Positions 20,854 to 21,354 of a DNA stretch of 51,874 nt are shown piece after piece (the first letter of the stretch is position 1; each line of letters opens with the position of its first letter). The position numbers were made by a program, and so were the translations under genes. The DNA is from a phage, in sequence record PZ386979.1; one strand, 5' to 3'. The notes beneath the pieces are model-generated. The model saw nothing but the letters and a program-made list of their open reading frames with translations. It was not told the DNA's origin and searched no databases.

Positions 20854-20884
20854 GTTGGTGTCTCCTTAGTTGTTGTTGGTTGCA

Positions 20885-20928
20885 ACTATACACGATCTTG
20901 CGGTGGGCGTTTAGCAAAAAGTGCTATT
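20885..20928 (-). promoter_or_regulatory. conserved element plus -10 (TATAGT) upstream of cor
   Basis: Minus-sense AATAGCACTTTTTGCTAA, 20-nt spacer, TATAGT, then AAGGAG RBS and cor ATG. Confidence 0.5.
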
Positions 20929-21040
20929 CTTGTTCTTTTTGTTATCCGGCGTTCTCAAATCTGCGGAGTCTTAAATTTAGCTCAAAAAGTGAGCAACAAT
21001 AGAGCGCAATACATACAGATAATATATATACATACATATA

Positions 21041-21055
21041 AATCAATAAGTTAGT
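21041..21055 (+). repeat. AATCAATAAGTTAGT 15-mer shared between the two AT-rich control regions (copy 1)
   Basis: Identical 15-mer at 42382..42396, both embedded in ATATA-rich DNA. Confidence 0.6.
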
Positions 21056-21228
21056 AGTATATATATTCATGTTTGTTCTTTATTGTTATCTATGTTTTGT
21101 GTGATTTTGTGTGTCTGGTGATTTTTCTGTGATTATGCATGTGTCAGTGGTTATGTGTGTCTATATATCTATATCAGGCGCAAATGGAGGAACAAGGGAA
21201 CAAAAATACAACACGGATATTTATCAAT

Positions 21229-21244
21229 AACTTACATGTAAGTT
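21229..21244. repeat. 16-bp perfect palindrome AACTTACATGTAAGTT (candidate operator)
   Basis: Self-complementary 16-mer about 55 bp upstream of early promoter -35. Confidence 0.6.
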
Positions 21245-21297
21245 TTGTTATCCAGTCTGGTGAGAACGTTGTTAGAACAGAAAAAACAAAATAACTA

Positions 21298-21325
21298 TTG
21301 ACTAAACGCATTAAATAGCTACAAT
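21298..21325 (+). promoter_or_regulatory. sigma70-like early promoter (TTGACT-16-TACAAT) for recombination operon
   Basis: -35 TTGACT 21298..21303, -10 TACAAT 21320..21325, about 30 nt upstream of exonuclease ATG; paralogous to promoter at 42627. Confidence 0.6.
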
Positions 21326-21354
21326 GCAGACATACCAACCAATGAGGGCAAATC

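What the first reader, a model, noticed from the sequence alone, without database searches (positions are those of the whole stretch)
20854..21354. AT-rich 500-bp non-coding control region with iteron-like repeats and a 16-bp palindrome
No credible ORF. Contains ATATA-rich tracts, repeated GTGATT (21101, 21118, 21129) and TGTGTGTCT (21108, 21154), TTATC(C/A)-containing sites loosely resembling DnaA boxes, the perfect palindrome AACTTACATGTAAGTT (21229..21244), a sigma70-like promoter TTGACT-16-TACAAT driving the recombination operon, and a leftward element-type promoter for cor. It is a candidate origin or early control hub.
Basis: seen in the sequence. Interest (0 to 1): 0.6.

Follow-up and report, generated by a model that had tools for sequence, protein, structure and literature searches.

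The report
Candidate replication origin, T1-like phage
This 500-base gene-free stretch of a T1-like coliphage holds two real promoters plus a conserved core, duplicated 21 kb away, that is built like a replication origin, giving a testable candidate for the still unmapped T1-family origin.

Summary
The window is a complete Hanrivervirus genome (T1-like, Drexlerviridae). Region 20854-21354 is a true ORF-free, AT-rich gap (GC 0.34 vs 0.44) between cor (leftward) and the exo-erf-ssb operon (rightward).

Family comparison shows which ones matter:
- **Conserved:** the sigma70 promoter TTGACT-16-TACAAT; the leftward 21-nt family repeat with its -10; two IHF-consensus sites; (TA)n tracts; and arrays of GAACA/TGTTC half-sites.
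- **Not conserved:** the GTGATT and TGTGTGTCT repeats, the 16-bp palindrome and the TTATC(C/A) "DnaA-like" sites.

Main new findings:
- The core (about 20930-21297) has a colinear paralogue at 42272-42625.
- The two copies are the least stable duplex DNA in the genome. The same holds in T1, ESCO41 and Klebsiella phage phiW14.
- Both copies carry half-site arrays in opposed orientations around the (TA)n core. The half-site sequence changes with phage lineage while the layout stays fixed.

Best reading (about 0.5): a divergent promoter region whose core is one of two paralogous, iteron-type origin modules. Main rival (about 0.3): a transcription-only control region. Nothing here shows initiation or protein binding. 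The papers I could read report no origin for T1-like phages.

The parts
20626..20853 (-). cor (superinfection-exclusion lipoprotein, 75 aa); left boundary of the region
   Evidence: ORF. Annotated Cor in RefSeq relatives.
20862..20867 (-). Ribosome-binding site of cor (AAGGAG on the minus strand)
   Evidence: Read from the sequence. This block is conserved in alignment A1.
20885..20890 (-). -10-like hexamer TATAGT of the leftward repeat-type promoter for cor
   Evidence: It lies 19 nt downstream of the repeat, as in the other 18 copies of this promoter class. ACTATACA is conserved in relatives that have a leftward gene.
20909..20929 (-). Copy of the 21-nt Drexlerviridae direct repeat (GAATAGCACTTTTTGCTAAAC), pointing towards cor
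   Evidence: Zero mismatches to ATAGCACNNNTTGNTAAA. There are 19 copies in the window against 0.76 expected. The element is described for TLS in PMC11447400. It is absent from the homologous gap of TLS-like phages, which have no leftward gene.
20930..20956 (.). Left outer half-site array (TTGTTCTTTTTGTTATC...GTTCTC); reverse-oriented TGTTC/CGTTC sites at 20931 and 20950
   Evidence: TGTT and GTT are invariant across 14 sequences from several genera. Site map. Reverse-oriented sites peak at -450..-400 in 27 Tempevirinae loci.
21008..21107 (.). (TA)n-rich core, the least stable 100 bp of duplex in the genome. It includes the 11-nt inverted repeat 21021-21031 / 21057-21067.
   Evidence: Nearest-neighbour stability z = 4.9; the only comparable segment is 42337-42436, and the next best has z = 3.4. 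Inverted repeat I9. TATATA is 85-fold enriched in the two gaps. Same property in T1, ESCO41 and phiW14.
21041..21053 (+). IHF-consensus site 1 (AATCAATAAGTTA) in the centre of the (TA)n core
   Evidence: Matches WATCAANNNNTTR. The identical 13-mer lies at 42382 in the paralogue. Six of the 11 genome-wide matches lie in or next to the two gaps. Conserved in Hanrivervirus and Warwickvirus relatives, not in TLS-like or T1.
21070..21097 (.). Inner left half-site array (TGTTTGTTCTTTATTGTTATC...TGTTT); reverse-oriented sites at 21070, 21074, 21093
   Evidence: Reverse-oriented sites peak at -300..-250 across the family.
21094..21161 (.). The half-site orientation switches here.
   Evidence: Positions. 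This is the most variable, indel-rich part of the alignment; only the T/G-rich composition is kept.
21162..21175 (.). Third (TA)n tract (TATATATCTATATC)
   Evidence: Read from the sequence. Conserved as TATATA in both paralogues and in relatives.
21188..21214 (+). Forward half-site pair GGAACAAGGGAACAAAAATACAACA (GAACA at 21190 and 21198)
   Evidence: The two AAC triplets are invariant in 14 Tempevirinae sequences, and the AC pairs are invariant across Tempevirinae plus T1-like phages. In T1-like phages the same positions carry TTAC or ATAC instead.
21222..21234 (+). IHF-consensus site 2 (TATCAATAACTTA)
   Evidence: ATCA...CTTA is conserved across Tempevirinae.
21229..21244 (.). 16-bp perfect palindrome AACTTACATGTAAGTT. 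Only its left half (ACTTAC, overlapping IHF site 2) is conserved.
   Evidence: A different palindrome (TTGCGCGCAA) sits at the same place in the paralogue.
21243..21253 (.). TTTTGTTATCC block (exact repeat of 20937-20947)
   Evidence: Repeat family D12. TTTTGTT is invariant. TTTTGTT/AACAAAA is shared by both gaps in every Tempevirinae genome examined.
21264..21296 (+). Promoter-proximal forward half-sites and A-tract (GAACG 21264, GAACA 21275, AAACA 21284), in the position of an UP element (about -37 to -69)
   Evidence: AACAGAAAAAACAA is conserved. The equivalent T1-like positions read ATTACAC...ATTACAT.
21298..21325 (+). sigma70 promoter TTGACT-16-TACAAT for exo-erf-ssb. The inferred transcription start is about 21332-21333.
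   Evidence: TTGAC and TAnAAT are invariant in A1 and A4. It is one of only two strong canonical promoter matches that sit in an intergenic gap in my scan. It corresponds to TLS P51.
21344..21357 (+). Ribosome-binding site (GAGGG) and start codon of the exonuclease VIII (RecE-like) gene; right boundary
42272..42655 (+). Paralogous copy of the core plus its own sigma70 promoter (TTGACT-17-GATAAT at 42627-42655), within the 680-nt gap 42008-42687
   Evidence: blastn of region positions 78-435 against 42272-42625: 64% identity over 367 columns, E = 4e-28 (pair search) or 2e-26 (whole-window search). Same order of elements. Promoter; it corresponds to TLS P01.

Best explanation
The region is a divergent control region wrapped around a replication-origin-like DNA module.

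**Outer parts (shown by sequence and conservation)**
- A leftward promoter of the family's 21-nt-repeat class drives cor.
- A rightward canonical sigma70 promoter drives exo, erf and ssb. It is one of the very few canonical host-type promoters that sit in an intergenic gap of the genome, so it is presumably early.

**Core (about 20930-21297)**
- It is one of two paralogous copies per genome; the other is at 42272-42625.
- A (TA)n segment forms the least stable duplex in the genome. In this lineage it carries an IHF-consensus site at its centre.
- Short 5-nt half-sites (RAAC[AG] here) flank it in opposed orientations. Several are about one helical turn apart.
- Further forward-oriented sites, and a second IHF-consensus site, run up to the promoter.

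**Inferred mechanism (not shown)**
1. A phage-encoded protein, whose specificity differs between phage lineages, coats the half-site arrays.
2. IHF bends the DNA and the (TA)n core melts.
3. The phage's own MCM-like helicase and P4-alpha-type primase are loaded, and host DNA polymerase III takes over.
4. Transcription from the adjacent promoter may help opening, and occupancy of the promoter-proximal sites may feed back on that promoter.
5. The second copy acts either as a second origin or as a cis partner, as in P4 ori/crr or SPP1 oriL/oriR.
For: **Selection on non-coding DNA.** Identity of the gap exceeds identity at four-fold degenerate sites of the adjacent exo gene: 0.716 vs 0.45 (L004) and 0.914 vs 0.785 (L008).

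**Constant position across the family.** A 450-530-bp ORF-poor gap precedes exo in all 45 loci fetched through that gene, and a 495-bp one in phiW14 (Webervirus). The left neighbour varies:
- cor or other genes in most;
- the tail fibre gene directly in TLS-like phages, with no leftward gene to serve;
- the co-directional primase gene in phiW14, where exo has a repeat-type promoter rather than a canonical sigma70 one.

So the core is tied neither to a divergent gene pair nor to one promoter type.

**Paralogy.** Found in the window (E = 4e-28) and in L013, L015, L006, L008, L011, L028 and T1 and TLS.

**Duplex instability.** The two copies are the two least stable 60-bp and 100-bp windows of the genome (z = 4.7-5.1; next 3.4). 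The same is true in T1, ESCO41 and phiW14 (z = 4.9-5.9).

**Half-site arrays.**
- Ten RAAC[AG] sites vs 4.2 in shuffles (P = 0.003).
- All five sites left of the spacer are reverse-oriented and all five right of it are forward-oriented.
- Three phased pairs vs 0.09 expected (P = 0.0005).
- The same positional and orientation profile appears in 27 Tempevirinae and 17 T1-like/ESCO41 loci.

**Lineage-specific site sequence on a fixed layout.**
- Tempevirinae: GAACA + AAACA at 10-13 per 390 nt, GTAAC about 0.1.
- T1-like: TTACA 8.5 and GTAAC 5.8, GAACA + AAACA 1.4 (coding background 0.3-2).
- T1: TGTTACA occurs 6 times in the two gaps and 0 times elsewhere.
- phiW14: 11 of 25 genomic TCTTAC copies lie in this gap. 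Its second gap has TTTGTGG x4 and CCACAAA x5 on opposite sides of the TA core (read from the printed sequence).
- Hosts overlap, so a phage-encoded binder is the simpler explanation.

**Phage replication genes.** The phage encodes a primase related to the P4 alpha primase domain (E = 5e-13; Pfam Zn_Ribbon_Prim). It also encodes a DUF3987 protein whose model (pLDDT 89) most resembles MCM helicases and ends in a winged helix.

**No competing origin in the papers I could read.** The TLS and SU57 papers both looked for an origin and found none (PMC11447400; PMC7718038).

**Precedent.** The annotated P4 record has the same iteron (TGTTCACC, spaced 10-11 nt) in two separate cis regions, ori and crr. 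PICI pri-rep origins have two iteron sets flanking an AT-rich region (PMC6092414).
Against: - There are no data on initiation, copy number or protein binding. Everything rests on architecture and conservation.
- The same features could serve transcription: IHF sites and unstable AT-rich DNA upstream of strong promoters, with arrays of regulator sites. Both copies sit directly upstream of two of the few sigma70 promoters.
- The half-sites are short (5 nt) and were defined after looking at the alignments. In the second copy their excess is not significant on its own (7 sites, P = 0.10).
- The IHF-consensus sites are not conserved in T1 or in most TLS-like copies.
- The cognate binder was not identified. 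In ESCO41 the MCM-like helicase and the Cro-like protein are closer to the window's than to T1's, although its sites are of the T1 type.
- The winged helix shows no sequence similarity to the P4 alpha origin-binding domain (hhalign probability 0.5%).
- No DnaA boxes and no GATC cluster.
Confidence: 0.5

Rival explanations
1. Transcription-only control region. The conserved core is an upstream activating or regulatory region for the early sigma70 promoters. IHF bending and the easily melted (TA)n DNA would boost open-complex formation, as proposed for IHF at the ilvPG promoter (my recollection). The half-site arrays would be operators for a phage regulator, for example the Cro-like protein at 28786-29259, which switches the two early promoters on or off. 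No replication would start here.
For: - Both copies end in one of the few canonical sigma70 promoters of the genome.
- The promoter-proximal sites occupy the UP-element position.
- The phage encodes a Cro/YdaS-like helix-turn-helix protein behind the third sigma70 promoter.
- The orientation split (T-rich on the left, A-rich on the right) could partly reflect divergent promoters.
Against: - The conserved part extends to about -400. That includes the (TA)n core at about -290 to -345 and an array beyond it, which is far for a sigma70 promoter.
- The left half is retained in TLS-like phages, which have no leftward gene.
- In phiW14 the gap lies between co-directional genes and exo uses a repeat-type promoter, yet the TA core and 11 repeats remain.
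- The third sigma70 promoter, at about 29.3 kb, has no such module.
Confidence: 0.3
2. Packaging-related or recombination-related site. The T/G-rich spacer with its GTGATT repeats would be a secondary recognition site for the small terminase subunit (a pac-like site), or a loading or hot-spot site for the adjacent exo/erf recombination system.
For: - The T1 and TLS GenBank records both begin inside the second gap, in an array of TGATT repeats. TLS starts with AGATTT, which its authors assigned as pac.
- GTGATT occurs three times in the spacer here.
- T1's copy of this gap has GTGATTTGATTGATT.
Against: - The pac-associated array lies in the part of the second gap (about 42090-42270) that has no counterpart here. 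The shared core starts after it.
- The GTGATT repeats are not conserved beyond close relatives.
- Nothing links the TA core or the GAACA arrays to packaging.
Confidence: 0.07
3. Host-initiated origin of the oriC type. DnaA would bind the TTATC(C/A) sites and, with IHF, open the AT-rich DNA.
For: - Three TTATC(C/A) words.
- IHF-consensus sites and an AT-rich segment are present.
Against: - No match to TTATNCACA with up to 1 mismatch in the region.
- The ATCC parts of these words vary in relatives, whereas the adjacent TTTGTT is what is conserved.
- Only one GATC.
- The repeated sites differ between phage lineages infecting the same host.
- The phage has its own primase and helicase.
Confidence: 0.03
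4. Nothing special: a neutral AT-rich spacer with chance repeats, a decayed gene remnant, or an unannotated small protein or RNA gene.
For: - Some GenBank records annotate one to three hypothetical proteins inside the gap.
- Short repeats are easy to find in AT-rich DNA.
Against: - The gap is more conserved than synonymous sites of the neighbouring gene.
- All small ORFs are broken in close relatives.
- No Rfam match.
- A colinear paralogue is kept in several genera.
- The core lies outside the predicted transcripts of both promoters.
Confidence: 0.05

Closest known systems
Satellite phage P4 ori plus crr (origin recognised by the alpha primase-helicase)
   Same: - Two separate cis regions per genome carry the same short iteron. 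In P4 it is TGTTCACC, with tandem copies 10-11 nt apart and in both orientations (annotated record).
- The window's half-site TGTTC/GAACA, and TLS's GTGAACA, resemble the P4 core.
- The phage primase is homologous to the alpha primase domain.
   Different: - The sites here are shorter and degenerate, and they differ by lineage.
- No P4-type SF3 helicase and no homologous origin-binding domain was found.
- Primase and helicase are separate genes, and the helicase model is MCM-like.
- The copies are about 21 kb apart and each abuts a strong promoter.
- No function has been shown.
Origins of pri-rep type phage-inducible chromosomal islands of E. coli (PMC6092414)
   Same: [quoted passage not shown] This is the layout found here.
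   Different: Those origins lie next to the pri-rep gene, occur once per element, and were tested functionally. Here the module is duplicated, its binder is unknown and it is untested.
Bacillus phage SPP1 oriL and oriR (my recollection, not checked here)
   Same: A virulent siphovirus with two copies of an origin module, each with repeated initiator boxes next to an AT-rich segment, located far apart in the genome.
   Different: - The SPP1 initiator (G38P) is known, and one origin lies inside its gene.
- There is no sequence relationship.
- SPP1 uses a DnaB-type helicase.
Archaeal origins: inverted origin-recognition boxes flanking an unwinding element, with MCM loading (my recollection)
   Same: Opposed arrays of recognition sites around the most easily melted DNA, together with an MCM-like helicase carrying a C-terminal winged helix.
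   Different: - No Orc1/Cdc6 homologue was identified.
- The sites are only about 5 nt long.
- Similarity of the helicase to MCM is at fold level only (Foldseek E about 1e-4, TM about 0.35).
Promoter-linked origins of T7 and T4 (my recollection)
   Same: An AT-rich unwinding segment is coupled to a strong early or middle promoter in a virulent coliphage.
   Different: In T7 and T4 the unwinding element lies downstream of the promoter and the transcript primes synthesis. Here the unstable core lies about 270-320 bp upstream of the promoter.
The 21-nt direct repeat of Drexlerviridae (aaATAGCACnnnTTGnTAAAA; PMC11447400)
   Same: Positions 20909-20929 (minus strand) are a perfect member: same sequence, pointing towards the downstream gene.
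   Different: It accounts only for the leftmost 50-70 nt of the region. Its own function (promoter, UP element or operator) is still unsettled in that paper.

Membership tests
Iteron-type replication origin (plasmid or phage) | Multiple copies of a short initiator-binding repeat, typically phased by about one helical turn | tested here: met
   - Ten RAAC[AG] sites vs 4.2 in shuffles (P = 0.003).
- Three same-orientation pairs 8-11 nt apart vs 0.09 (P = 0.0005).
- The same layout in 44 related loci.

Caveat: the sites are only 5 nt long and were defined post hoc. The excess in the second copy is not significant alone (P = 0.10).
Iteron-type replication origin (plasmid or phage) | An adjacent AT-rich DNA-unwinding element | tested here: met
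   Positions 21008-21107 and 42337-42436 are the two least stable 100-bp windows of the genome (z = 4.9 and 4.7). The same holds in T1, ESCO41 and phiW14.
Iteron-type replication origin (plasmid or phage) | Repeats bound by a cognate, element-encoded initiator | tested here: inconclusive
   The site sequence switches with phage lineage on a constant layout, which argues for a phage-encoded binder. However, neither the MCM-like helicase nor the Cro-like protein tracks the switch in ESCO41. Binding itself cannot be tested here.
Iteron-type replication origin (plasmid or phage) | Replication initiates there, or the fragment confers replication | not testable with these tools
   This needs marker-frequency sequencing, 2D gels or an origin-cloning assay.
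P4 ori/crr system | Type 1 iteron TGTTCACC | tested here: not met
   P4 iterons were verified from the annotated record. The window has only the TGTTC/GAACA core. TLS has GTGAACA, 7 of 8 positions.
P4 ori/crr system | Two separate cis regions sharing the iteron | tested here: met
   The two gaps are colinear paralogues and share TTTTGTT, TGTTATC and GAAC sites.
P4 ori/crr system | An alpha-type primase-helicase with a C-terminal winged-helix origin-binding domain | tested here: not met
   - Only the primase domain is homologous (alpha residues 26-262, E = 5e-13).
- The helicase is a separate DUF3987, MCM-like protein.
- Its C-terminal winged helix shows no sequence similarity to the alpha origin-binding domain (hhalign probability 0.5%).
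oriC-type (DnaA-dependent) origin | Clustered DnaA boxes (TTATNCACA) | tested here: not met
   No site with up to 1 mismatch in 20854-21354; 50 genome-wide. The TTATCC words are not conserved.
oriC-type (DnaA-dependent) origin | A cluster of GATC sites | tested here: not met
   One GATC in 501 nt against a genome mean of 2.6.
Lambda-type origin | Iterons inside the initiator gene | tested here: not met
   The region is non-coding. The TLS authors found no such repeats in the helicase gene.
sigma70 promoter | -35 and -10 hexamers with 16-18 nt spacing, positioned before a gene and conserved | tested here: met
   - TTGACT-16-TACAAT scores 10 of 12.
- TTGAC and TAnAAT are invariant in two alignments.
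- It lies 29 nt before the exo ATG.
- It corresponds to TLS P51.

The transcription start was not mapped.
Drexlerviridae 21-nt direct-repeat element | Sequence aaATAGCACnnnTTGnTAAAA, intergenic, oriented with the downstream gene | tested here: met
   - Zero mismatches at 20910-20927 on the minus strand.
- It points to cor.
- It is followed by TATAGT after 19 nt, like the other copies.
- It is present only where a leftward gene exists.
IHF binding site | Core consensus WATCAANNNNTTR in AT-rich context | tested here: met
   Two matches vs 0.08 in shuffles (P = 0.0025). Six of 11 genome-wide matches lie in or next to the two gaps. Binding was not tested. The sites are not conserved in T1 or most TLS-like copies.
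Known non-coding RNA family (Rfam) | A covariance-model match at or near the gathering score | tested here: not met
   The best match scores 22.5 bits against a gathering score of 60, with E = 4.8.

The most novel reading that the evidence does not exclude
The two paralogous modules are the long-sought replication origins of the T1 family. On this reading they are a bacterial-virus version of the archaeal design: opposed arrays of lineage-specific recognition sites around an unwinding element direct the loading of the phage's own MCM-like helicase. Recognition would be through the helicase's C-terminal winged helix or through an as yet unidentified initiator. The site and its binder would co-evolve between genera, as plasmid incompatibility determinants do.
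Probability: 0.2. Interest if true: 0.8.

Novelty: new member of a known kind. Interest (0 to 1): 0.6.

Why it matters
T1 is one of the classical T phages and a notorious laboratory and fermenter contaminant. The two genome papers I could read that looked for an origin in T1-like phages (TLS, 2024; SU57, 2020) found none, and the TLS authors state that no iteron-like repeats exist anywhere in that genome.

This analysis gives two precisely bounded candidate loci, at about 21.0-21.3 kb and 42.3-42.6 kb. It also gives a defined set of candidate binding sites whose sequence differs predictably between genera. Together these turn the open question into simple experiments: marker frequency, origin cloning, footprinting and site swaps.

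If confirmed, it would also:
- assign a role to the DUF3987 MCM-like helicase of these phages;
- explain why about 0.5 kb of non-coding DNA is kept at the same position in every Drexlerviridae genome examined here;
- give annotators a reason to stop calling spurious ORFs there.

If the transcription-only rival is right, the module still defines the early-promoter architecture of the family.

Tried and rejected
- **Rfam and tRNA scans** found nothing.
- **Small ORFs in the gap** were rejected. All are broken in relatives.
- **DnaA boxes and GATC clustering** were rejected.
- **The 16-bp palindrome as a conserved operator** was rejected. It is specific to close relatives and replaced by a different palindrome in the paralogue.
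- **GTGATT and TGTGTGTCT as iterons** were rejected. They lie in the variable spacer.
- **Anchoring relatives of the second gap on the rightward 99-aa gene** failed, with no relatives found. The leftward 90-aa gene worked.
- **Paralogy in two TLS-like loci (L024, L026)** was not detected with that anchor. It was found in TLS itself once the record ends were joined.
- **A further copy of the module in the window** was not found by blastn. The primase/helicase divergent gap (about 29.26-29.35 kb) is only about 90 nt and has no array.
- **Homology of the helicase winged helix to the P4 alpha origin-binding domain** was not detected.
- **PDB sequence search with the helicase** gave nothing useful.
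- **Identifying the protein that tracks the site switch**, using ESCO41 as the discordant lineage, was inconclusive.
- **Literature searches** for a mapped T1 origin or a T1-family transcriptome found nothing usable. The Rtp genome paper is not held. The 2004 T1 genome paper was not among the search results and was not read.
- **GC skew** follows gene orientation and says nothing about replication.
- **Host factors other than IHF** (ArcA, OmpR, Fis, CRP) were considered by eye only. They were dropped as untestable here and hard to square with the lineage-specific site changes.
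Full report
**What the window is.** The 51,874-nt window is a complete genome of a T1-like siphovirus: Drexlerviridae, Tempevirinae, Hanrivervirus. The closest record is Escherichia phage vB_EcoD_Fulano1, at 97% identity over the query. The sequence is opened between the small and large terminase subunit genes. The gene order, taken from the colinear Fulano1 annotation and my own ORF lists, is:
- structural genes on the plus strand up to 20.6 kb;
- cor (minus strand);
- the region in question;
- exo, a 92-aa ORF, erf and ssb (plus);
- a minus-strand block including a primase and a Cro-like regulator;
- a plus-strand block from an SF2 helicase to the lysis genes;
- a minus-strand block including a DUF3987 helicase;
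- a second large gap at 42008-42687;
- small early genes on the plus strand to the end.

**Checking the observation.**
- The gap spans exactly 20854-21354, with GC 0.341 against 0.440 for the genome.
- None of six small ORFs in or overlapping the gap is intact in relatives, even at 92-97% identity.
- Rfam and tRNA scans are negative.

So "no credible ORF" holds, and several GenBank records that annotate hypothetical proteins here are probably wrong.

**Is the gap under selection?** Its identity to relatives exceeds identity at four-fold degenerate sites of the adjacent exo gene. Examples are 0.716 vs 0.45 for SLUR29 and 0.914 vs 0.785 for PGN590. All 45 loci fetched through the exo gene from viral contigs have a 450-530-nt ORF-poor gap in front of it, whatever lies to the left. 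In TLS-like phages the tail fibre gene ends there and there is no leftward gene.

**What is conserved.** A 14-sequence alignment across several genera (A1), and a second alignment that adds T1-like phages (A4), show the following conserved elements:
- the promoter (TATTGACTAAA...GCTAcAATGC);
- the leftward repeat, but only where a leftward gene exists;
- (TA)n tracts;
- two IHF-consensus sites;
- several TTTGTT / GAAC blocks.

The stretch carrying GTGATT and TGTGTGTCT is the most variable part, with large indels. Only the left half of the palindrome is conserved, and that half overlaps the second IHF-consensus site. The TTATCC words vary, while the adjacent TTTGTT does not. No DnaA box with up to one mismatch is present, and there is only one GATC.

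**The two promoters.**
- The leftward "element" is the known 21-nt Drexlerviridae direct repeat described for TLS, whose function is unsettled there (PMC11447400).
- The window has 19 copies against 0.76 expected.
- In nearly all copies a -10-like hexamer follows 19-22 nt downstream. For cor this is TATAGT at 20885-20890 on the minus strand.
- The rightward TTGACT-16-TACAAT corresponds to TLS promoter P51.
- The TLS authors found only three intergenic sigma70 promoters: P01, P51 and P57.
- My own scan of the window agrees. The only strong canonical matches that sit in intergenic gaps are at 21298 and 42627. I also read a weaker TTGAGT-16-TATAAT by eye on the minus strand near 29.3 kb, in front of the Cro-like regulator and primase genes.

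**The second gap is a paralogue.**
- Region positions 78-435 align colinearly, in the same orientation, with 42272-42625: 64% identity over 367 columns, E = 4e-28.
- The order of elements is the same in both copies:
  1. leftward family repeat;
  2. TGTT blocks;
  3. TATATA, then the identical 13-mer AATCAATAAGTTA, then TATATA;
  4. TTTGTT blocks;
  5. a variable T/G-rich spacer;
  6. TATATA;
  7. a GAAC pair;
  8. the second IHF-like site;
  9. TTTTGTTATC;
  10. an A-rich GAAC block;
  11. a sigma70 promoter, followed by a rightward gene.
- No third copy exists in the window.
- The paralogy recurs in seven other genomes, including T1, and in TLS.

**Physical property.**
- By nearest-neighbour free energy, 21008-21107 and 42337-42436 are the two least stable 100-bp windows of the genome (z = 4.9 and 4.7; next 3.4). 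The same two loci also hold the two least stable 60-bp windows.
- In T1, ESCO41 (Nouzillyvirus) and Klebsiella phage phiW14 (Webervirus), the two least stable windows are again the gap in front of exo and the early divergent gap (z = 4.9-5.9).

**Half-site arrays.**
- The region has ten RAAC[AG] sites against 4.2 in dinucleotide shuffles (P = 0.003).
- The five sites left of the variable spacer are all reverse-oriented and the five to its right are all forward-oriented.
- Three same-orientation pairs are 8-11 nt apart, against 0.09 expected (P = 0.0005).
- Averaged over 27 Tempevirinae loci, reverse sites cluster at -450..-400 and -300..-250 relative to the exo ATG. Forward sites cluster at -400..-320, -200..-150 and -100..-50. 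The (TA)n core is therefore bracketed by opposed arrays.
- Seventeen T1-like and ESCO41 loci show the same profile, but with WTAC[AG] as the site.

**The site sequence is lineage-specific.** Counts are per 390 nt of the gap; the coding background is 0.3-2.

| Group | GAACA + AAACA | TTACA | GTAAC |
|---|---|---|---|
| Tempevirinae | 10-13 | 0-1.8 | about 0.1 |
| T1-like | 1.4 | 8.5 | 5.8 |

- In alignment A4 the invariant columns are the "AC" of two sites 8-9 nt apart. The preceding bases change together within a genome.
- In T1, TGTTACA occurs six times in the two gaps and nowhere else.
- In phiW14, 11 of the 25 genomic TCTTAC/GTAAGA copies lie in this gap, against 0.12 expected per 500 nt. 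Reading its second gap, I count TTTGTGG x4 on one side of the TA core and CCACAAA x5 on the other.
- In phiW14 the gap lies between the co-directional primase and exo genes, and exo is preceded by a repeat-type promoter.
- A fixed layout with a changing recognition word, in phages that share hosts, points to a phage-encoded binder. The retention of the module without divergent genes, or without a canonical sigma70 promoter, points away from a purely promoter-serving role.

**The phage's replication proteins.**
- The primase has the Zn_Ribbon_Prim domain and aligns with residues 26-262 of P4 alpha (E = 5e-13).
- The 527-aa DUF3987 protein gives a confident model (pLDDT 89, pTM 0.86). Its best PDB matches are MCM2-7 and archaeal MCM chains (E about 1e-4).
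- That model ends in a helix-strand-helix-helix-strand-strand arrangement (residues 451-521), which I read as a winged helix.
- This winged helix has no detectable sequence similarity to the P4 alpha origin-binding domain.
- A 157-aa Cro/YdaS-like helix-turn-helix protein is encoded just upstream of the primase.
- I could not tell which protein reads the sites. In ESCO41 both the helicase and the Cro-like protein are closer to the window's versions than to T1's, although its sites are of the T1 type.

**Comparison with known systems.**
- The annotated P4 record confirms that its type 1 iteron, TGTTCACC, occurs in two separate cis regions (ori and crr), with tandem copies 10-11 nt apart.
- PICI pri-rep origins are described as two iteron sets flanking an AT-rich region (PMC6092414).
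- The module here works like these on paper. It fails membership of the P4 family on the iteron sequence, the helicase type and the origin-binding domain.
- It is not an oriC-type or a lambda-type origin.
- The TLS paper states that no iteron-like repeats occur in that genome and names no origin. The SU57 paper reports that no origin was found.
- I found no paper that maps a T1-family origin. Older subscription literature, including the Rtp genome paper, was not available, and I did not read the 2004 T1 genome paper.

**Verdict.**
- The outer parts of the region are ordinary and explained: a repeat-type promoter for cor and a conserved sigma70 promoter for the recombination operon.
- The core is one of two paralogous, selectively maintained, origin-like modules.
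- I put about 0.5 on it being a replication origin, or an origin partner, coupled to the early promoter.
- I put about 0.3 on a transcription-only control module.
- The rest goes to packaging or recombination roles and other readings.
- No step of initiation or binding is shown. All of that is inference from architecture, conservation and precedent.

Noticed in passing
window 42008-42687: The second large ORF-free gap (680 nt, GC 0.374) is a colinear paralogue of the finding. It has its own leftward family repeat (42068-42085) and a rightward sigma70 promoter (TTGACT-17-GATAAT at 42627-42655).
   Followed up: yes
window 42090-42270; L051 (T1) 48700-48836 and 1-120; L095 (TLS) 1-60: - This part of the second gap has no counterpart in the finding.
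- It carries GGAATA/TATTCC inverted repeats and an array of TGATT-type repeats.
- The T1, TLS and ESCO41 GenBank records all begin inside this gap. T1 and TLS begin in the TGATT array, and TLS starts with AGATTT, which its authors took as pac.
- It is probably the packaging initiation region, 8-9 kb from the terminase genes.
   Followed up: partly
window, 19 sites (e.g. 2073, 22417, 29273, 31797, 32838, 39159-, 41212-, 43723, 44941, 47922, 49263): The 21-nt family repeat is followed 19-22 nt downstream by a -10-like hexamer ((c/t)ATAAT or TATAGT) in nearly every copy. A GC-rich hairpin often fills the interval. This looks like a distinct promoter class with the repeat in the -35/UP position.
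   Followed up: partly
window 36829-38466 (minus): The protein annotated as "DNA helicase" (DUF3987) gives a confident model. Its ATPase core is most similar to MCM2-7 and archaeal MCM, and it has a C-terminal winged helix.
   Followed up: partly
window 28786-29259 (minus) and about 29260-29350: A Cro/YdaS-like helix-turn-helix protein (157 aa) is encoded just upstream of the primase. I read a TTGAGT-16-TATAAT promoter by eye on the minus strand in front of it, at a position corresponding to TLS P57. The divergent gap to the SF2 helicase gene is only about 90 nt and also contains a family repeat (29273, plus strand).
   Followed up: partly
window 20598-20617: A GC-rich hairpin flanked by A-rich and T-rich runs lies between the last tail-associated gene (plus) and cor (minus). 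It looks like a bidirectional terminator and would insulate the finding from late read-through.
   Followed up: no
L001 (BEK1-23) vs window: Mosaicism: the BEK1-23 exo gene is 93.5% identical to the window's, but the gap in front of it is only 71% identical. A recombination junction therefore lies at or near the promoter or the exo start.
   Followed up: no
window 22498-22776 (plus): The 92-aa ORF between exo and erf is labelled "tail length tape measure protein" in several records and in PHROG 11265. That is implausible given its size and its place in the recombination operon, so it is likely a propagated mis-annotation.
   Followed up: no
window 49954-49969: The only other perfect 16-bp palindrome in the genome (TGATGAAATTTCATCA).
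   Followed up: no
L101 (phiW14) 28709-31687: In Webervirus the order is regulator, primase, gap, exo, all on one strand. There the homologous gap directly adjoins the replication genes.
   Followed up: partly
one search hit list: Eighteen records named "Campylobacter phage" (host given as C. jejuni) are 94-95% identical to this coliphage region and carry no annotation. These are probably contaminant or mislabelled coliphage assemblies.
   Followed up: no
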